A stretch of 64,000 nt of DNA, from positions 161-64,160 of IMG/VR virus record IMGVR_UViG_3300045747_000276; one strand, given 5' to 3'. Both the position numbers and the translations under genes were made by a program. Position 1 is the first letter of the stretch, and each line of letters opens with the position of its first letter. Source of the DNA: a virus (Duplodnaviria > Caudoviricetes). The notes below the pieces were generated by a model. It searched no databases and had not been told where the DNA came from. It saw nothing but the letters and a program-made list of their open reading frames with translations. Shown here in pieces: positions 39,500 through 61,592 of this stretch.

Positions 39500-39785
39500 T
39501 ATTTGGGTTTTGAAATTGATTACAGGTGAGGAGATTGTTACTCGTGGGGCATTCCACAAAGAGACCGACAATTGGATTTGTGAGCGTCCATATATCTTCC
39601 AGGTTGTCCCAGATTATCAGGGAGGTAATCATCGTGCTGCCCTCGGACCGTATTTTATGACGGATCGTAACGCAGATTGTGATTTTAAGGATTCTCATGT
39701 TGTTTCATTTATTGAGGCACCACAAGAGATGAAAACTCAGTACATCAGACAGACTACTGGGATTGAAATTGCTGGTGTTGTTTAA
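39492..39785 (+). CDS. Sm-like small protein
   Basis: 'VLKLITGEEIV...Y...TTGI' pattern of T4-like Sm-fold proteins. Confidence 0.6.
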   Translation: MSNIWVLKLITGEEIVTRGAFHKETDNWICERPYIFQVVPDYQGGNHRAALGPYFMTDRNADCDFKDSHVVSFIEAPQEMKTQYIRQTTGIEIAGVV

Positions 39786-39886
39786 AAACAACAAGTGAAT
39801 AATAATTGTTGTAAATAAATCAAATAACACTTATTATTGATACATTGCAATTGAGCAATAGATATATAATTTTCATAAGGATACAT

Positions 39887-40435
39887 ATGAGTAAGATTAC
39901 AAAATTGGCAGCTATTGTTGCTGTAATGGTGAGCAGCGTGGCAATGGCAGGTGAATTTGCCACAGTTGAATTTCAGGGAGCCAAGACATACGGTAATGCA
40001 GTTCAGTCTGATACTGGTTCATTAGTAGTGGGGACACAGCGAGGCCCAGTTACTCTTGATGTCAAGTTGCAAACAGAACGTCAACGTGATGCTGGCACTA
40101 ATGCTAATGATGTTCAATTCCGAGTAACTGCACCTGTAGGTCCTGTTTGGGTTCGTGTGGGCCTAGGTAAGCAAGTCGATGGCGGTCTTGGTGATAACAC
40201 ATATTACACATACGCTGCAGGTGTTGATTATTCAATTTATAAGAATATCGTTTTAAACGCATCGGCAGAACGCCAAAAGGCATTCGATGGGGCGAAACCA
40301 ACATTTGAAACATACCGATTCGGTGCAACTTATGCATTGACTGCAGTTGATTATGTAGGTGCAGCTTGGGTCATCAATCGTGGTGATGTAGATGCTCATG
40401 CAGTCGGCGTAAATTACACGCGAAAGTTTAATTAA
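39887..40435 (+). CDS. Secreted outer-membrane beta-barrel-like protein
   Basis: Signal peptide ending AMA; alternating beta-strands; C-terminal 'NYTRKFN'. Confidence 0.65.
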   Translation: MSKITKLAAIVAVMVSSVAMAGEFATVEFQGAKTYGNAVQSDTGSLVVGTQRGPVTLDVKLQTERQRDAGTNANDVQFRVTAPVGPVWVRVGLGKQVDGGLGDNTYYTYAAGVDYSIYKNIVLNASAERQKAFDGAKPTFETYRFGATYALTAVDYVGAAWVINRGDVDAHAVGVNYTRKFN

Positions 40436-40476
40436 AATTGTGGCATCCATCGCGGTGCCATTCTTAGTTCATTATT

Positions 40477-40664
40477 AGGAAAAGTTCAGCAAACATACAC
40501 TTTACGTAAATACTAATACTAATGTATGGAGATTCTCGAAGGAGATGACAGATCGGAAAGACGGTATGCCGATAGGAAAGACTATTGCTAATTGATAAAA
40601 GTAGTCAATGACTCTGTGACAAAGACACAGTAATAGTGGTAATCCACAATACTTTTCCTGTTAA
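40477..40664 (+). ncRNA. TCAGCAA-box structured RNA, copy 1
   Basis: aggaaaagt-TCAGCAA...acttttcct-GTTAA; several internal hairpins. Confidence 0.7.
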
Positions 40665-40669
40665 AATTT

Positions 40670-40906
40670 TGGATAATTTCAGCAATTATTAAACGACAAA
40701 TGCTGTTGACGGTGCCTTGTTTGGGGTGATGTGTAGTTATGTTAGAAATAACACACCAATGGAACAGATATGCGATGTAACAGAAAACACATCGGGTGAA
40801 GAGACCTTACATCTTATAGCTCATAAGCGAAAGTTATGATATTGCGTGGAGGGTTTCAGGTAACACGCGTGAATAAATTGAAACAAGACCTCAGATATCC
40901 AGTTAA
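40670..40906 (+). ncRNA. TCAGCAA-box structured RNA, copy 2
   Basis: tggata..TCAGCAA...tatcca-GTTAA; multi-stem interior. Confidence 0.65.
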
Positions 40907-40915
40907 TCGAATAGT

Positions 40916-41045
40916 AGGATAGATTCAGCAACTAATTAAAAGTACTAAGACGGCATATCGAAGCGGACTGATAATCTCCGTGGATATATGCCAAACAAGT
41001 TTTTGACAGTCACTTGTAAAATAAACTACCAAAGCTATCCTGATA
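40916..41045 (+). ncRNA. TCAGCAA-box structured RNA, copy 3
   Basis: aggatag.t-TCAGCAA...ctatcct-GATA. Confidence 0.65.
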
Positions 41046-41111
41046 CTATTTAAATACAACAGACTTTAATTTACGCTCTTAGTCTGTGAGCGGTAATAAG
41101 TAGGAGACGAC

Positions 41112-41873
41112 ATGATGTATAATCAAAAATTTATAGCGACAGTTAAAACAGACGGTAAAGTTCTTAGGGAGTTTAAGGACACAATTTACATACCGTACGG
41201 CAGCGAATATTCTGTATACCTAATGAACATGAATAGTGTTCGAGCAAAAGTCAAGGTATCAATTGATGGTGAGGATGTACTAAATGGTGATGATTTAGTA
41301 ATTGCACCAAACACTTCAATTGAACTAGAGCGGTTTATGGAGACTATGGACAAAGGTCACAAGTTCAAATTCATTGAACGATCATCTGAAATAGAATCGC
41401 ACAGGGGTCTCAGGGCAGAAGATGGTTTGTTGAGGGTAGAATATACCTTTGAGAAAGTATCCGCTCCAATTGTTAATAATTACCCACCCTTTAATTACCC
41501 ACCAGGTGTTCGCGCATTCGGTGTCAATGATTGGGGTAAACCGGTGCTTATGGCACAAACATACGATAGTTATTCACCTAGCAATAGTAGTTTGTTTGTA
41601 TCTGCTTCTGCAAAATCTTTCAGTTCATCAAGTGTGGGTATAACTACTAAAGGTAGTATTTCAACTCAGCAATTTCAGAAAGTTTCAGATTTTACAACCG
41701 ATGGCGTGTCTCATGTTATGGTACTACACCTTCAAGGTGAAAATCAAGGTAAACCGGTAGTCACCCCAATTGATGTTAAGAGGGTACAGAAGTGTGATTG
41801 TTGCGGCAAGGTAAATCCAGTCTCAGCAAAGTTCTGCAATTCGTGTGGAACATCATTAGAAGTGTTAGTGTAA
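41112..41873 (+). CDS. Hypothetical protein (beta-rich N-terminus, C-terminal Zn ribbon)
   Basis: RBS aggag; 'CDCCG...FCNSCG'. Confidence 0.75.
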   Translation: MMYNQKFIATVKTDGKVLREFKDTIYIPYGSEYSVYLMNMNSVRAKVKVSIDGEDVLNGDDLVIAPNTSIELERFMETMDKGHKFKFIERSSEIESHRGLRAEDGLLRVEYTFEKVSAPIVNNYPPFNYPPGVRAFGVNDWGKPVLMAQTYDSYSPSNSSLFVSASAKSFSSSSVGITTKGSISTQQFQKVSDFTTDGVSHVMVLHLQGENQGKPVVTPIDVKRVQKCDCCGKVNPVSAKFCNSCGTSLEVLV

Positions 41874-41962
41874 ATATTTTTAAAATATTTTGATATTTTT
41901 CAGAATTTTGAATATTTCAGGCATATATATTATATAGAAAACAAATTCCAACAGGAAACCAA

Positions 41963-42085
41963 ATGACAAGACTTTTATGTAACATGCAAAAAACAACCCA
42001 GGGTGCAACACGCCCTGAGTGGCATGCTGCAGTACCATTTTATGGTAATGATTCTATTAGTGGGTTGGGGAGTGGGTCTTGTTGA
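41963..42085 (+). CDS. Putative leader peptide (40 aa; not in the ORF track)
   Basis: RBS agga; MTRLLCNMQKTTQGATRPEWHAAVPFYGNDSISGLGSGSC; its end overlaps the antiterminator strand. Confidence 0.6.
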   Translation: MTRLLCNMQKTTQGATRPEWHAAVPFYGNDSISGLGSGSC

Positions 42086-42152
42086 AGGTGTAAAAAGAAG
42101 AAGAAAGAACAAGACCCAACAAGTAGCAATATTTGTTGGGTTTTGTCATTTT
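42073..42152 (+). terminator. Attenuator-like terminator/antiterminator
   Basis: 42073-42083 tgggtcttgtt pairs with 42108-42118 aacaagaccca, which alternatively pairs in the 15-bp stem 42109-42123/42132-42146. Confidence 0.65.
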
Positions 42153-42251
42153 AGTGGTTCAAATCAATGGGTTATGAAAGTGCTTGCAATTTAAGTTGAA
42201 GTCTGTCATAATTGATTTTGTTGTGTTGATTGAAGATGTAAAAATCATCGG

Positions 42252-42280
42252 TTGACATTAAAGATTTTGTATTATACAAT
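42252..42280 (+). promoter_or_regulatory. Sigma70-type promoter ahead of the RNA cluster
   Basis: TTGACA-17-TACAAT. Confidence 0.7.
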
Positions 42281-42309
42281 AAGGTTTGAATAAAAGGTTT
42301 ATATTATGT

Positions 42310-42610
42310 TTCAGCGAAATATGGGTTTGTAGGAAACAAGAGCCCGACAAGAAGTTTCCCCTTATGAGACGCCTCCGGTTTCATATTGAAAGAAGTTAAT
42401 CACACCGTCAGGTGAATGGTAAAATTGTTTGACAAACAACAGTGAGGTGTGGGGATGCAACGAGAGCTGGAAACCACAAGAAAAAGATCAATAGTCGTCC
42501 TGATATTCAGAAATGAATATCGTGATGCTCAAAAAGCATTATCCGGAAAAGCCATCACCAGGATGGATTAAAGGAGGATTTAAAATGAGCCTTGATGCAA
42601 TGTCAGGGCA
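42310..42610 (+). ncRNA. Unidentified multi-hairpin RNA (about 300 nt)
   Basis: No credible ORF; successive hairpins such as gatattca-GAAA-tgaatatc, tatgagac/gtttcata, gccttga/tcagggc. Confidence 0.45.
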
Positions 42611-42711
42611 CATTTTGAAGTGTTTTATTTCATTGCTGAAATTTGATCAGTTAGACAGGGTGCATCAAATAACCTATGTCGTGAATGATAGAATATTTCA
42701 AAATGTAAATT

Positions 42712-42797
42712 GGACGTGTAGGAAAATTGGTAACCCCAGAAGACTGTAAATCTTCCGCCTCACGGCATTGTTGGTTCGACCCCAACCGCGTCCACCA
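42712..42797 (+). tRNA. tRNA-Tyr(GTA)
   Basis: gaaga-CTGTAAA-tcttc; long variable arm; ACCA. Confidence 0.9.
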
Positions 42798-42803
42798 AAC
42801 AAT

Positions 42804-42878
42804 GTCGCATTAGACTTCTAGTGAGGTCATCAGCCTTTCACGCTGACCAGACGGGGGCAGAACCCGTATGCGACTCCA
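42804..42878 (+). tRNA. tRNA-Glu(TTC)
   Basis: tcagc-CTTTCAC-gctga; atypical T-loop GGCAGAA; TCCA. Confidence 0.85.
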
Positions 42879-42889
42879 GACAAATTAAT

Positions 42890-42958
42890 GGGCTTACCGA
42901 ATGGGTCGGGAAAGACACTTGCAATGTCATGCTTGCGGATCGTTACCGCATAGGTCCA
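42890..42958 (+). tRNA. tRNA-Ala(TGC)
   Basis: gaca-CTTGCAA-tgtc; G3.U70 pair; no encoded CCA. Confidence 0.7.
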
Positions 42959-42999
42959 CACAGAGTGAATTTTGCATAAATACATGTAAGGAGGACAAG

Positions 43000-43582
43000 A
43001 TGTTCTATTATTTGTATGAGATAACCAATAAGGTTAATGACAAAATTTACGTAGGGGTGCATAAGACATCAGATTTGAATGATGGTTTATATGGGCTCTG
43101 GAAAGATAATTCAGCATGCAATTGCAAAGCATGGTGTACTGAATTTTTCTAAAGTCATACTAGAGCATTTTGATACATCAGATGCTATGTATGCAAGAGA
43201 AGCAGAATTGGTGAATGCCGAATTCTTAGAAAGAGATGACGTGTATAACCTCCGTAGAGGAGGACATGGCGGGTTTGATTACATTAACAAATATTGTGGT
43301 AATCAGGGTATCCGGATGAATTCACACATGTCTAATGAGACCAGACGCAAGGGTGCATTTAAAATGATTGAAATATGTAAACGTGACGGATTGGGTGTTT
43401 ACTCAGATTCCAGAATAAACATATTTAAAGATAAATCATTCCAAGATGAAATGACAAATAGGGCCAGAATTCATAATATGGGTTCTAAATGGGTCACTAA
43501 TGGTATAGAGAATAGAAAAATAAAGAAAGATGTTTTGATACCTGATGGGTGGAAATTAGGTAGAGTCATTAAGCCGCTGTAG
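43000..43582 (+). pseudogene. Frameshifted GIY-YIG homing endonuclease
   Basis: MFYYLYEITN..YVGVH..DG then YMGSG in another frame (one extra T near 43087); CATAAATA at 42975. Confidence 0.8.
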
Positions 43583-43647: not shown

Positions 43648-43652
43648 ATATT

Positions 43653-43735
43653 AGGATGAATTCAGCAACCAATTAAAATCTGTCTGTGGTTTTCGATTTT
43701 CCACTTAAATAAAAAGTAGGTATTCATCCTGTTAA
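43653..43735 (+). ncRNA. TCAGCAA-box structured RNA, copy 4
   Basis: aggatgaat-TCAGCAA...attcatcct-GTTAA (perfect 9-bp stem). Confidence 0.7.
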
Positions 43736-43860
43736 AATCAATCGGAGTAATTGACCGAAAAGTAAATGTTGATCATCTTGGCTATTTGGGTGATCCATGC
43801 AGTGTTACACAGCTATGAAAAGACGGGGTAAGAATCCTCACGTAAAGTATGCAGAAATAT

Positions 43861-43939
43861 TGACCGTAAGTCGACAAGGTGTTAGGCGCCTCGCTGTTAA
43901 CGAGGAATAAGTTAGGTTCGATTCCTAAACGGTCAGCCA
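43861..43939 (+). tRNA. tRNA-Asn(GTT)
   Basis: cctcg-CTGTTAA-cgagg; GCCA. Confidence 0.88.
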
Positions 43940-43944
43940 ATTAT

Positions 43945-44038
43945 TTCCCAGTTTACCTCACATCGCGCGAGAGGCAATGGAGTCACATATTTTATATGTG
44001 TGCGGACAACATGAGTTCAATTCTCATCTGGGAAGCCA
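43945..44038 (+). ncRNA. Atypical tRNA-like RNA (TTT at anticodon position)
   Basis: Acceptor ttcccag/ctgggaa-GCCA; T-arm atgag-TTCAATT-ctcat; enlarged D region. Confidence 0.65.
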
Positions 44039-44133: not shown

Positions 44134-44207
44134 GCCCGGTTAATTAAAAAGTATAATATTCGCCTGATAAGCGAAATTCAGAGGAGCGTTACCTCTACTG
44201 GGTACCA
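44134..44207 (+). tRNA. tRNA-Ile(GAT)
   Basis: ttcgc-CTGATAA-gcgaa; T-loop AGCGTTA; ACCA. Confidence 0.82.
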
Positions 44208-44295: not shown

Positions 44296-44355
44296 AGAAT
44301 GCGTTCAGCAAACAAAAAAATTCAACTTTTAATTGAAAAATAAGCATTCTGTTAA
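44296..44355 (+). ncRNA. TCAGCAA-box structured RNA, copy 5 (carries a Lys-UUU anticodon stem-loop mimic)
   Basis: agaatgc.t-TCAGCAA...ttcaa-CTTTTAA-ttgaa...gcattct-GTTAA. Confidence 0.72.
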
Positions 44356-44359
44356 TTTT

Positions 44360-49929: not shown

Positions 49930-50270
49930 TGGTAGTAAACTGATCGTAAGAAACGATTGCAACACGGGAGTGCAACTCTCCTCACCTCCACCATAAGAAC
50001 TCTGAATCTTGCAGCAATGCATGATCAGGTTTGGTACTCCAGATCCCTCTTGCACGGTAACACCGATAACAAAGACAGATGCACCGAGAGTTCTTTTGAT
50101 GGGGGTGCCTTAGGATCGACTGCGAAAGAAGTACAATGCATTGGCTACTCGTCACAGATAGACGTAAAAAGTAAAACGCAATTAAATGCAAACGACGAAA
50201 GATTCGCTTTAGCCGCATAGGCCTAGCGTAAGGAGTTCGATGGGTTGTCCTTATAACAGACTCAACCCAT
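49930..50270 (+). ncRNA. ssrA: Circularly permuted (two-piece) tmRNA
   Basis: Acceptor piece ends cacctcc-ACCA at 49993; coding piece begins GGGGGTG at 50101 (G3.U70); tag ANDERFALAA* at 50188-50220. Confidence 0.92.
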
Positions 50271-60067: not shown

Positions 60068-60096
60068 TTGACAATAAATCGACACTCCCTTACAAT
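60068..60096 (+). promoter_or_regulatory. Sigma70-type promoter for the DUF2828 gene, overlapping a GC hairpin
   Basis: TTGACA-17-TACAAT inside gggagtgttg/cgacactccc. Confidence 0.7.
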
Positions 60097-60121
60097 AATC
60101 AAACATTGAAAAATGTAATTT

Positions 60122-60177
60122 AGTTTGGGTTCAGCAACCTATATCAATCATACTGAAACCAAAGTCCAAACTGTTAA
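60122..60177 (+). promoter_or_regulatory. TCAGCAA-box element, copy 6, in the 5' UTR next to the RBS
   Basis: agtttgg-gt-TCAGCAA...ccaaact-GTTAA-aaggaatttaaATG. Confidence 0.72.
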
Positions 60178-60188
60178 AAGGAATTTAA

Positions 60189-61592
60189 ATGAACGCATTT
60201 GTTAACGCTATCGGTACTCCAAATAAGACTGTAACTACCAATGGAATGGTAGCATTCGATAAGACAGGCTCCAAGTTGGTAGATATGTTCTTCAACATTG
60301 GTGCAGCTCGCAACAACCCAAATATTGTTCCTCAATTCATGCAAGCATTTGCAGAGGACAAACTGTTGGCCACAAAGATGTTATTCTGGGCCCGTGATGT
60401 TCGAGGTGGAGCAGGTGAACGTAAGGTTTTCCGTGATATTTTGTCAAAGCTGGCAGTAACTAACCCAGATTTAGTGAAGAAGAATTTGCCGCTTGTGGCA
60501 AAGTATGGTCGTTGGGATGACCTCCTTATCCTTAAGGGTGATGTATTGCAATCTGCATATCGCCTAATTGGTACTGCCATTAAATCAGGCAATGGTCTGT
60601 GCGGTAAGTGGATGCCCCGCAAGGGCCCAGAGGCTGCAGCACTTCGGTCAGCACTTGGGATGTCACCAAAACAATACAGAAAGACCCTTGTCGGTTTAAC
60701 GTCGGTTGTTGAGACCCAAATGTGTGCTAAGACATGGGATAACATTGAGTTCGGTCATGTGCCTTCAATTGCAGCAGCACGGTATCAAAAAGCATTCGCA
60801 AAGAACGCTGAGGTGAAGTATAAAGAATATCGAGACGCTCTAGTTACTGGTGAAGCAAAGATCAACGCATCTAGCATTTTCCCTCACGATGTTATCAAGA
60901 GCCTGCAGTCGGGTCTGGTAGATGTTGCAACAGCACAATGGAATGCATTACCTAATTATCTAGGTGACCAAAAGGTGTTGGCACTGGTTGACGTGTCAGG
61001 TTCTATGTCCTGCCCAGCAGGAAAGAATAGTAACACAACATGTCTAGATGTGTCATTGTCCCTTGGTTTGTATGTGTCGGACAAATTGACTGGTGCTTTC
61101 AAGGATACATTCTTGACATTTAGTGCATCACCACAATTGTTGACCCTTAAAGGTTCTATTGCAGAAAAGTTAGGACAATTGGAGTCATCTGATGATTGGG
61201 AAATGAATACTAATATTGAATTGGCGTTTGATGCAATTCTTAAGACGGCAGTAAAGGCAAATGCTCCCCAAGAGGATATGCCAGATGTTCTGTTGATTAT
61301 GTCAGATATGCAATTTGATCAATGTGCAGATTGGGGCGACACCATGCAAACTATGATGCAACGCAAGTATGAAAATGCGGGGTATAAGGTGCCTACAATT
61401 GTGTTCTGGAATCTCAATGGTTCACACGGAAATGTGCCTGGCACATCCGTTGATAAGGGAGTTATGATGGTTTCTGGGTTCTCCCCAGCAATCCTTAAGG
61501 CAGTTCTTGCCTGTGATCTGACCAATGTCACACCATACAGTATGATGTTGGAGGTCCTAAACGGTGATCGTTACGCAAACGTAACCGTATAA
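60189..61592 (+). CDS. DUF2828-family helical plus vWA protein (putative Ro60/TROVE-like RNA-binding protein)
   Basis: 'RDVRGGAGER', 'YGRWDDL', 'KWMPR', MIDAS 'DVSGSM', 'SDMQFD', 'FWNL', 'SGFS'. Confidence 0.82.
   Translation: MNAFVNAIGTPNKTVTTNGMVAFDKTGSKLVDMFFNIGAARNNPNIVPQFMQAFAEDKLLATKMLFWARDVRGGAGERKVFRDILSKLAVTNPDLVKKNLPLVAKYGRWDDLLILKGDVLQSAYRLIGTAIKSGNGLCGKWMPRKGPEAAALRSALGMSPKQYRKTLVGLTSVVETQMCAKTWDNIEFGHVPSIAAARYQKAFAKNAEVKYKEYRDALVTGEAKINASSIFPHDVIKSLQSGLVDVATAQWNALPNYLGDQKVLALVDVSGSMSCPAGKNSNTTCLDVSLSLGLYVSDKLTGAFKDTFLTFSASPQLLTLKGSIAEKLGQLESSDDWEMNTNIELAFDAILKTAVKANAPQEDMPDVLLIMSDMQFDQCADWGDTMQTMMQRKYENAGYKVPTIVFWNLNGSHGNVPGTSVDKGVMMVSGFSPAILKAVLACDLTNVTPYSMMLEVLNGDRYANVTV

What the first reader, a model, noticed from the sequence alone, without database searches (positions are those of the whole stretch)
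40477..41873. Three tandem box RNAs with distinct multi-hairpin cargo, directly upstream of a Zn-ribbon gene
Copies 1-3 sit head to tail, 5-10 nt apart, like a processed array. Copy 1 repeats hairpins with similar loops (cg-GAAAGA-cg, tag-GAAAGA-cta, ctgtg-ACAAAGA-cacag), resembling a multivalent protein sponge. Copy 3 has gga-CTGATAA-tct (Ile-GAU-like loop) and a TTGACAG loop (Val-GAC-like). The 253-aa gene that follows may be a partner protein (inference).
Basis: partly seen in the sequence, partly recalled or inferred. Interest (0 to 1): 0.7.

Follow-up and report, generated by a model that had tools for sequence, protein, structure and literature searches.

The report
Phage Y-RNA-like "box" RNA family
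The three tandem RNAs belong to a large phage family of small structured RNAs that share one conserved handle, carry varied and often tRNA-like inserts, and lie beside a Ro60-like protein gene, much as bacterial Y RNAs do.

Summary
The three tandem elements are real (40476-40660, 40669-40902, 40915-41042, + strand). Each has a 7-10 bp terminal stem, the exact box UUCAGCAA just inside it, and a different insert ("cargo"). Three shorter copies lie elsewhere in the window: two between tRNAs, and one in the 5' leader of a DUF2828/DUF7788 gene. A model of that protein matches only Ro60/TROVE structures at E<=0.001.

The same handle (UAGGAU..AUCCUG stem plus box) lies upstream of the DUF2828 gene, same strand, in 60 of 75 usable related viral contigs, about 20-fold above background. 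The inner stem pairs covary. A model of the handle also hits the complete genomes of phages S13, KVP40, BUCT-ZZ01 and RSP15; by eye and a weak hit it is in a Felixounavirus too. About a fifth of family members carry a rotated tRNA-like insert like YrlA Y RNAs. Others carry an anticodon-arm look-alike. No Rfam family covers the handle.

Best reading: Y-RNA-like partners of a phage Ro60-like protein. Binding is inferred, not shown. The 253-aa Zn-ribbon gene is not the regular partner: 76 of 80 homologous loci have no box RNA upstream. The inserts of copies 1-3 have no detectable relatives, and no RNA data exist.

The parts
40476..40668 (+). Box RNA copy 1. Handle stem 40476-40485 with 40651-40660, box UUCAGCAA at 40485-40492, about 160-nt multi-hairpin insert, GUUAAAA tail.
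   Evidence: partial model hit
40669..40907 (+). Box RNA copy 2. Handle stem 40669-40675 with 40896-40902, box at 40678-40685, about 210-nt insert of uncertain fold, GUUAAU tail.
   Evidence: partial model hit (E 0.04)
40915..41047 (+). Box RNA copy 3. Handle stem 40915-40922 with 41035-41042, box at 40924-40931, about 100-nt insert with two hairpins, deviant GAUAC tail.
   Evidence: full-length model hit of 21.8 bits, E 0.015,
41112..41873 (+). 253-aa gene: N-terminal beta-sandwich, disordered linker, C-terminal Zn ribbon. Probably co-transcribed with the three RNAs. Not a regular neighbour of the RNA family.
42109..42146 (+). Terminator-like hairpin (17 pairs) that would end the unit made of the RNA array and the 253-aa gene.
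43652..43736 (+). Box RNA between tRNA-Asp and the next genes of the tRNA array. Not in the model's seed.
   Evidence: 40.3 bits, E 7.1e-7,
44296..44358 (+). Short box RNA between tRNA-Arg and tRNA-Pro. Its insert is one hairpin with the 7-nt loop CUUUUAA, the same loop as the window's own tRNA-Lys(UUU). It is 88-93% conserved over 58 nt in many other contigs.
   Evidence: (a seed member, so it matches by construction)
60068..60096 (+). Sigma-70-like promoter (11 of 12 matches) in front of the leader box element.
60121..60178 (+). Minimal box element in the 5' leader of the DUF2828 gene. It ends 15 nt before the start codon.
   Evidence: (a seed member)
60189..61592 (+). DUF2828/DUF7788 protein (phrog_850, 'RNA-binding protein'), predicted to be a Ro60-like helical-repeat ring plus vWA domain. 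Proposed partner of the box RNAs.

Best explanation
The three tandem elements are stable small non-coding RNAs of a widespread phage family that works like Y RNAs. Each RNA has a constant 'handle': an 8-bp stem formed by its 5' and 3' ends, with six sequence-conserved outer pairs (UAGGAU with AUCCUG) and two freely covarying inner pairs. The single-stranded box UUCAGCAA lies on the inner 5' side, an A-rich stretch on the inner 3' side, and a U/A-rich tail outside. Inferred: the handle is the binding site of the phage's Ro60-like protein (DUF2828/DUF7788; window 60189-61592). The exchangeable insert then gives each RNA-protein particle its specificity. Inserts seen in the family include a rotated tRNA-like domain as in YrlA, an anticodon-arm look-alike, GAAAGA hairpins, and lineage-specific multi-hairpin domains as in copies 1-3. 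Inferred: the RNAs are cut out of longer transcripts (tRNA arrays, or here the leader of the 253-aa gene) at the U/A-rich spacers and by the enzymes that process the neighbouring tRNAs. Inferred: the minimal copy in the leader of the Ro60-like gene, which ends 15 nt before the start codon, lets the protein repress its own translation. Shown here: the family, its handle, the covariation, and its genomic link to the Ro60-like gene and to tRNA arrays. Not shown: transcription, processing, binding, and any biological role.
For: (1) Handle structure. In 14 short members, 97.1% of cells pair, 5 of 8 pairs show changes on both sides (26 cells), and 0 of 500 shuffles reach the observed score; slid controls pair in 33-53% of cells. 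A looser census of 443 distinct elements gives the same pattern. (2) Link to the protein gene. A strict element (box with at most 1 mismatch, closure of at least 6 Watson-Crick pairs, then GUU) occurs 123 times in the 72.7 kb lying within 1 kb upstream of 80 DUF2828 genes, on the + strand. The rest of the + strand holds 37 in 446.5 kb and the - strand 30 in 519.2 kb. 60 of the 75 loci with at least 200 nt of upstream sequence have at least one. (3) Reverse test. Starting from a 15-base handle pattern, 33 of 80 viral loci hold a DUF2828 homologue in the stored stretch, and in all 35 of 35 match rows with such a gene it is on the same strand. (4) Complete genomes. The handle model finds 1-4 hits at E<=0.01 in 4 of 4 cultured phages that have the gene (S13, KVP40, BUCT-ZZ01, RSP15), all on the gene's strand, and 0 in XacN1, which lacks the gene. 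(5) The protein is Ro60-like. Model pLDDT is 82.6. All 13 PDB matches at E<=0.001 are Ro60/TROVE structures (phage phiLo 9kop at E 3.3e-9; Xenopus 2i91 at TM 0.62). D268, S270 and S272, which fit the vWA metal-site pattern, are invariant in 38 sequences. (6) Y-RNA-like inserts. 70 of 325 elements contain a T-loop motif. Rfam YrlA gives sub-threshold hits to the tRNA-like part only, model positions 24-84 (L064 at 40.9 bits, also L078 and L051). (7) The handle acts as a separable module. In phage S13 two over-long annotated 'tRNAs' carry the box and a capped stem where the anticodon loop should be (by eye; fold). (8) Known Ro60 proteins, including a phage one, bind Y RNAs encoded next to their genes (PMC4201824 and PMC12135203, passages read).
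Against: No RNA data exist for this phage, so transcription, ends and processing are untested. Binding to the Ro60-like protein rests only on gene neighbourhood and analogy. The handle box differs from the Ro60-binding motifs in print (GNCGAAN0-1G, GGUCCGA, CGAA). The protein does not match Pfam TROVE at E<=0.01. Many box RNAs lie kilobases from the gene inside tRNA arrays: 47 of the 80 pattern-found loci show no DUF2828 gene in the stored stretch. The link could therefore partly reflect that both features live in tRNA islands (63 of 80 such loci hold tRNAs). A mycobacteriophage with a DUF2828-type 'Ro-like' gene showed neither this handle nor YrlA within 2.5 kb. The inserts of copies 1-3 have no detectable relatives. 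Copy 2's insert folds no better than shuffled sequence.
Confidence: 0.62

Rival explanations
1. The handle is a processing or stability cassette of phage tRNA-island transcripts. In this reading it is a stem with U/A-rich flanks that host RNases or another host factor recognise. It has no special tie to the Ro60-like protein, whose gene merely tends to sit in the same islands.
For: 63 of 80 pattern-found loci hold tRNAs, 1027 in all, and box RNAs sit a few nucleotides from tRNA ends. 47 of those 80 loci show no DUF2828 gene in the stored stretch. Copies 1-3 precede an unrelated gene.
Against: Six stem pairs and an 8-nt single-stranded box are conserved in sequence, which points to a specific binder. 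Elements concentrate in the last few hundred nucleotides before the DUF2828 start: 24 of the 123 upstream elements end 20-38 nt before it, the commonest distance being 21 nt. XacN1 is a 385-kb phage without the gene and has no hit. The YrlA-like inserts match the known design of Ro60 partners.
Confidence: 0.17
2. The elements act only in cis, as 5'-leader regulators such as translational operators or attenuators of the genes downstream, here the 253-aa gene and the DUF2828 gene. They are not free RNAs.
For: The leader copy ends 15 nt before the DUF2828 start and follows a promoter-like site. No terminator-like site separates copy 3 from the 253-aa gene. KVP40 has a box variant 20 nt before the start codon without a clear stem.
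Against: Many copies lie between tRNAs with no ORF downstream. Tandem arrays with different large inserts, and tRNA-like inserts, are not expected of operators.
Confidence: 0.08
3. One reading: the three RNAs are partners or sponges of the 253-aa Zn-ribbon protein encoded just downstream.
For: The same arrangement, tandem box RNAs directly upstream of a homologue, recurs in L003 (42% identity). L265, L283 and L286 also have elements within 1 kb upstream.
Against: 76 of 80 homologous loci have no element within 1 kb upstream, and the density equals background. XacN1 has the gene but no box RNA. 0 of 80 DUF2828 loci hold the gene. The predicted fold shows no known RNA-binding domain.
Confidence: 0.04
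4. The elements are small mobile DNA repeats with terminal inverted repeats, MITE-like or spread by the homing endonucleases in the tRNA island. They are not functional RNAs.
For: Terminal inverted repeats, multiple dispersed copies, and GIY-YIG/HNH homing endonuclease genes nearby.
Against: The strand bias is strong: 123 plus 37 on the gene strand against 30 on the other. Changes in the inner stem pairs are compensatory. The box is asymmetric and lies on one side only. The inserts are unrelated between copies. One short member is 88-93% conserved while the neighbouring DUF2828 protein is only about 50% identical to the window's.
Confidence: 0.03

Closest known systems
YrlA / bacterial Y RNAs (Rfam RF02553; Chen et al. 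2014, PMC4201824, abstract and passages read)
   Same: They are encoded beside a Ro60-type gene on the same strand, often in tandem. The 5' and 3' ends pair into a stem next to a short conserved single-stranded motif. In about a fifth of family members the insert is a tRNA-like domain in the order T arm, acceptor-like hairpin, D arm.
   Different: The motif is UUCAGCAA (variants UACAGCAA, UUCCGCAA), not GNCGAAN0-1G. The stem itself is conserved in sequence. No member reaches the Rfam threshold (best 40.9 bits against 69), and the hits cover the tRNA-like part only. Most members, including copies 1-3, have no tRNA-like domain. Copies are scattered through tRNA arrays. The partner candidate belongs to Pfam DUF2828/DUF7788, not TROVE.
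Thermus phage phiLo Ro60 with Yrl1/Yrl2 (PMC12135203, abstract and passages read; PDB 9kop, 9l5y)
   Same: A phage Ro60-type protein with two Y-like RNAs encoded directly upstream of its gene. Its structure is the best structural match of the window's protein.
   Different: The phiLo RNAs were picked by a CGAA motif in an internal bulge. Protein identity to the window's is about 15-17%. No tRNA-array context or exchangeable inserts are described in the passages read.
Bas63 gp130 (Felixounavirus; preprint 10.1101/2024.10.10.617714, passages read)
   Same: A Ro60-like phage protein encoded directly upstream of a tRNA array. The authors guess that some 'tRNAs' there are Y RNAs. In the related phage VpaE1 I find two tandem box RNAs between tRNA-Asp and tRNA-Lys, about 1 kb downstream of the DUF2828 gene.
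   Different: The preprint names no RNA. Bas63 itself was not examined here. The VpaE1 handle stem differs (AGACCR with YGGUCU), and the model scores it only 12.8 bits, E 0.43; the rest is reading by eye.
Small stable RNAs of the T4 tRNA gene cluster (recalled from memory, no call)
   Same: Small non-tRNA RNAs encoded inside a phage tRNA cluster and presumably processed with the tRNAs.
   Different: No sequence or structural comparison was made here. T4 was not tested for a DUF2828 gene.

Membership tests
Y RNA (partner of Ro60) | Encoded close to a Ro60-type gene, on the same strand | tested here: met
   60 of 75 usable loci have at least one element within 1 kb upstream. Same strand in 35 of 35 match rows. 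4 of 4 complete genomes with the gene have hits on its strand. Copies 1-3 themselves lie 19 kb upstream of the gene.
Y RNA (partner of Ro60) | Stem formed by the 5' and 3' ends next to a conserved protein-binding motif | tested here: met
   8-bp stem, 97.1% of cells paired, 5 of 8 pairs with compensatory change. Box conserved. True RNA ends are unknown.
Y RNA (partner of Ro60) | Published Ro60-binding sequence (GGUCCGA, GNCGAAN0-1G or CGAA) | tested here: not met
   The box is UUCAGCAA and variants. Rfam YrlA positions 1-23 never align.
Y RNA (partner of Ro60) | Physical binding to the Ro60-type protein | not testable with these tools
   Needs pull-down or gel-shift experiments.
YrlA (Rfam RF02553) | Reaches the Rfam gathering score (69 bits) | tested here: not met
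   No hit in window 39500-43500 at E<=10. Best hit in related loci is 40.9 bits. None at E<=0.1 in five cultured-phage loci.
YrlA (Rfam RF02553) | tRNA-like domain (T arm, acceptor-like hairpin, D arm) | tested here: not met
   Copies 1-3 and the other three window copies show none. It is present in 70 of 325 family members elsewhere.
Ro60 / TROVE protein (the DUF2828 gene product) | Helical-repeat ring plus vWA fold | tested here: met
   All 13 PDB matches at E<=0.001 are Ro60/TROVE, TM up to 0.62.
Ro60 / TROVE protein (the DUF2828 gene product) | Matches the Pfam TROVE profile | tested here: not met
   Only DUF7788 (6.8e-45) and DUF2828 (4.3e-28) are listed at E<=0.01. No PDB chain is found by sequence.
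Ro60 / TROVE protein (the DUF2828 gene product) | Metal-site (MIDAS) motif DxSxS in the vWA domain | tested here: met
   D268, S270 and S272 are invariant in 38 sequences. Calling this the MIDAS motif rests on recall.

The most novel reading that the evidence does not exclude
The handle is a universal adaptor. It lets one phage Ro60-like protein display a library of exchangeable RNA baits. Some baits mimic parts of tRNA: a whole L-shaped domain, or just an anticodon arm with the loop CUUNUAA, which would read as Lys UUU, Thr UGU or Arg UCU. These baits would decoy, sense or help repair damage from host defence nucleases that cut tRNA. The lineage-specific multi-hairpin inserts of copies 1-3 would be baits for other host factors. 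That would be a programmable RNA-decoy counter-defence system spread across T4-like, Felix O1-like and cyanobacterial phages.
Probability: 0.15. Interest if true: 0.9.

Novelty: new variant of a known kind. Interest (0 to 1): 0.72.

Why it matters
DUF2828-type 'RNA-binding proteins' occur in 709 of 50,697 deposited phage records, including Felix O1-like, KVP40-like, Listeria, Staphylococcus and Campylobacter phages. I found no RNA partner named for them in print. One preprint reports that the Felixounavirus protein counters a host defence and only guesses at Y RNAs. This family supplies a concrete, testable RNA partner with a defined handle, present in cultured phages. It widens the Y RNA concept from a tRNA mimic to a handle with exchangeable inserts. 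It also explains unannotated gaps and over-long 'tRNAs' in phage tRNA clusters.

Tried and rejected
No RNA holder was listed for the stretch. Contigs of three DNA runs laid on 40400-42200 were identical where they covered it, so they gave no natural variation.

blastn of 39800-42300 against deposited phages found no match. blastn of the inserts of copies 1-3 against all fetched loci found nothing beyond the handle, so conservation of their hairpins could not be tested.

Rfam shows no family on the three copies, at gathering scores or at E<=10. PDB sequence searches were uninformative: the DUF2828 protein gave one chance-level row (E 0.63) and the 253-aa protein none.

The 253-aa protein has no PHROG family and no PDB fold match at E<=0.001. 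It does have 26 matches among viral predicted structures, all uncharacterised.

There is no RtcB in the 64-kb fragment, which is only about 36% of the genome. The T4 late-promoter word TATAAATA is not enriched and is absent near the array. No sigma-70-like site lies directly before copy 1.

Mycobacteriophage Crossroads has no handle and no YrlA hit near its Ro-like gene.

A loose element definition (any 7-bp closure) was dropped because its background was too high, 0.55 per kb.

A strict-scan 'element' at 41822-42140 (box with one mismatch) lies across the end of the 253-aa gene and is taken as a false positive.

Earlier findings looked up by place, by sequence and by the first word set returned nothing.

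Literature searches on DUF2828, DUF7788, Ro60 with phage and Y RNA, and YrlA found no description of this handle. The supplementary tables of Chen et al. 2014, which list their 22 phages, could not be seen and may overlap.
Full report
SETTING. The window is nearly all of a 64,160-base viral metagenome record, estimated to be 36% complete. GC content is 38.8%. It carries 29 tRNA genes by ARAGORN and a permuted tmRNA, homing endonuclease genes and a T4 gp59-like helicase loader. It is therefore a large T4-like phage. Near-identical DNA occurs in pond, wetland and riverine metagenome runs.

THE OBSERVATION. The 8-mer TTCAGCAA occurs 11 times in the window against 3.69 expected by chance. Six of the seven + strand copies have the same anatomy: 40485, 40678, 40924, 43661, 44304 and 60130. 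A 7-11 bp stem starts just 5' of the box and closes 50-230 nt downstream. It is followed by GUUAA, or GAUAC in copy 3.

The three copies in the finding span 40476-40660, 40669-40902 and 40915-41042, with spacers of 8 and 12 nt. Copy 3 has z = -3.29. Copy 2 folds no better than shuffled sequence (z = -0.52). In copy 3 the two 'anticodon-like' words fall in 9- and 11-nt loops, so that detail is not reproduced. The region holds only ORFs of 44 aa or fewer.

THE HANDLE IS A CONSERVED RNA STRUCTURE. I aligned 14 short members from the window and from related contigs. The 8-bp terminal stem pairs in 97.1% of cells. Five of its 8 pairs change on both sides (26 cells). None of 500 shuffles reaches the covariation score, and sliding one strand drops pairing to 33-53%.

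A looser census of 443 distinct elements includes some background but gives the consensus: U-G, A-U, G-C, G-C, A-U or U-A, U-A, then two pairs that take all four Watson-Crick types. The box follows directly. An A-rich stretch precedes the 3' strand in 182 of 325 elements. The flanks are U/A-rich.

A covariance model of the handle (R1) was run over the whole window without filters. It finds the two seed members by construction. It also finds the non-seed copy at 43649-43739 (40.3 bits, E 7.1e-7) and copy 3 full length (21.8 bits, E 0.015), and partial hits on copies 2 and 1. Nothing else scores below E 0.5.

LINK TO A Ro60-LIKE GENE. The sixth window copy lies in the leader of a 467-aa gene. 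It sits behind a promoter-like site and ends 15 nt before the start codon. The protein matches Pfam DUF7788 and DUF2828 and phrog_850, 'RNA-binding protein'. An AlphaFold model built from 38 sequences has pLDDT 82.6. All 13 of its PDB matches at E<=0.001 are Ro60/TROVE structures, led by the Thermus phage phiLo protein. It does not match the TROVE profile by sequence at E<=0.01.

I fetched 80 viral contigs with homologues of 45-54% identity. Strict elements number 123 in the 72.7 kb immediately upstream on the gene's strand. The rest of that strand holds 37 in 446.5 kb, and the opposite strand 30 in 519.2 kb. Of the 75 loci with at least 200 nt of upstream sequence, 60 have at least one, often two to four. 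Twenty-four of the 123 upstream elements end 20-38 nt before the start, the commonest distance being 21 nt.

The reverse test started from a handle pattern scanned over the viral collection. Of the first 80 loci, 69 of 90 matches have the closing stem. Thirty-three loci hold a DUF2828 homologue in the stored stretch, always on the same strand (35 of 35 rows). Sixty-three of the 80 hold tRNAs, 1027 in all.

In complete cultured genomes R1 finds 1, 1, 4 and 4 hits in S13, KVP40, BUCT-ZZ01 and RSP15, all on the strand of the gene. It finds none in XacN1, which lacks the gene. The KVP40 hit lies in an unannotated gap of its tRNA cluster.

In Felixounavirus VpaE1, two tandem elements with a different stem lie between tRNA-Asp and tRNA-Lys, about 1 kb downstream of the gene. 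The model scores one of them only 12.8 bits (E 0.43); the rest is my reading of the sequence.

WHAT THE INSERTS ARE. The inserts differ widely. Seventy of 325 elements contain a T-loop motif. Many of these show T arm, acceptor-like hairpin and D arm in that order, which is the YrlA design. Rfam YrlA hits those parts below threshold (40.9, 29.0 and 28.3 bits, model positions about 24-84) but never the YrlA 5' motif.

A short class, to which window 44296-44358 belongs, carries a single 5-bp hairpin with the loop CUUNUAA. The window's copy has CUUUUAA, identical to the anticodon loop of the window's own tRNA-Lys(UUU). This class is 88-93% identical over 58 nt in many contigs, while the DUF2828 proteins are only about 50% identical. 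Among 58 seven-nucleotide loops in the folds of 122 elements, 20 are T-loop-like and 10 anticodon-loop-like, against 2 of 74 in shuffled inserts.

In phage S13 a standard element with a tRNA-like insert lies at L086:4154-4288. Two over-long annotated 'tRNAs' there carry the box and a tetraloop-capped stem where the anticodon loop should be (by eye). So the handle behaves as a separable module.

The inserts of copies 1-3 have no detectable relatives among about 280 fetched loci.

THE Zn-RIBBON GENE. The 253-aa protein has a large family, 1577 proteins at E<=0.001. Its model (pLDDT 77.4) shows a beta-sandwich, a disordered linker and a C-terminal Zn ribbon. It has no PDB match at E<=0.001. It resembles uncharacterised proteins of iridoviruses, nudiviruses, baculoviruses and giant viruses.

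One homologous contig, L003, repeats the arrangement of three tandem box RNAs directly upstream. L265 has the order DUF2828 gene, box RNAs, then this gene. But only 4 of 80 homologous loci have an element within 1 kb upstream, which is background density. L103 has none directly upstream. XacN1 has none at all. The gene is an occasional neighbour, not the partner.

No terminator-like site separates copy 3 from the gene, and a strong one follows at 42109-42146. Co-transcription is therefore likely, as an inference.

MECHANISM AND COMPARISON. The anatomy parallels Y RNAs: a terminal stem with a conserved motif, an exchangeable effector module that is sometimes a tRNA mimic, tandem genes beside a Ro60-type gene, and a Ro60-fold protein. 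In known systems Ro60 binds the stem motif and the Y RNA tethers it to other factors (PMC4201824; PMC12135203, where phage phiLo Ro60 binds two upstream Y-like RNAs; passages read). I therefore read the box RNAs as the Y-RNA counterparts of DUF2828-type phage Ro60-like proteins, and the leader copy as a likely self-repression site.

They are not members of YrlA. The Rfam threshold and the published binding motif are both not met.

A preprint reports that the Felixounavirus protein Bas63 gp130 is Ro60-like, counters the ppl defence, and may use unidentified Y RNAs among the neighbouring tRNAs (10.1101/2024.10.10.617714, passages read). The elements found in VpaE1 are candidates for exactly that.

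My literature searches found no description of this handle. Supplements were closed, so overlap with the 22 phages of Chen et al. 2014 cannot be excluded.

Earlier notes of this scan describe tRNA-mimic RNAs in other phages, some 'without Ro60'. I did not test whether those carry this handle or a DUF2828 gene.

VERDICT. This is a real, widespread and apparently undescribed variant of the Y RNA theme. The three flagged copies are members with lineage-specific inserts. Transcription, binding and function remain to be shown.

Noticed in passing
window 43860-44035: Two tRNA-sized sequences with acceptor-like ends, a T arm and CCA-like tails but odd D regions lie between the 43652 box RNA and the next tRNA. 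Neither ARAGORN nor Rfam calls them. A further tRNA at 44134-44204 is called by Rfam only.
   Followed up: no
L086:3896-4016 and L086:4026-4138 (Cronobacter phage S13): Two annotated 'tRNAs' of 121 and 113 nt have normal acceptor, D and T arms. In place of the anticodon loop they carry an insert of about 55 nt that holds the box and a capped stem: tRNA/box-handle chimeras.
   Followed up: partly
L013:876-1304: A GOLLD RNA (Rfam RF02032, 196.6 bits, gathering score 150) lies in the same tRNA island as the box RNAs and the DUF2828 gene of a related viral contig.
   Followed up: no
window 41112-41873: The predicted fold of the 253-aa protein matches uncharacterised proteins of iridoviruses (ORF098, ICP-18), nudiviruses, baculoviruses and giant viruses (26 matches at E<=0.001 in BFVD). 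This fold is shared by phages and large eukaryotic DNA viruses.
   Followed up: partly
window 49931-50220: A permuted (two-piece type) tmRNA gene lies inside the phage tRNA island (91.7 bits).
   Followed up: no
window 42290-42700: About 400 nt without an ORF of 50 aa or more until 42513, behind a near-consensus promoter (42252-42280) and before tRNA-Tyr. There is no Rfam match. It may hold another non-coding RNA.
   Followed up: no
window 39845-40435: The gene just upstream of the RNA array has a weak match to a Gram-negative porin profile (E 8.7e-4, below cut-off). By eye it has a signal-peptide-like N-terminus, so it may be a phage-encoded outer-membrane protein.
   Followed up: no
L087 about 1975-1985 (Vibrio phage KVP40): The box variant UUACAGCAA lies 20 nt before the start codon of the KVP40 DUF2828 gene without an evident closing stem. 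It may be a minimal operator.
   Followed up: no
L265:444-3750: One viral contig has the order DUF2828 gene, box RNAs (2087-2390), then a homologue of the 253-aa Zn-ribbon gene (3001 onward). This is the only locus of 80 that joins all three.
   Followed up: partly
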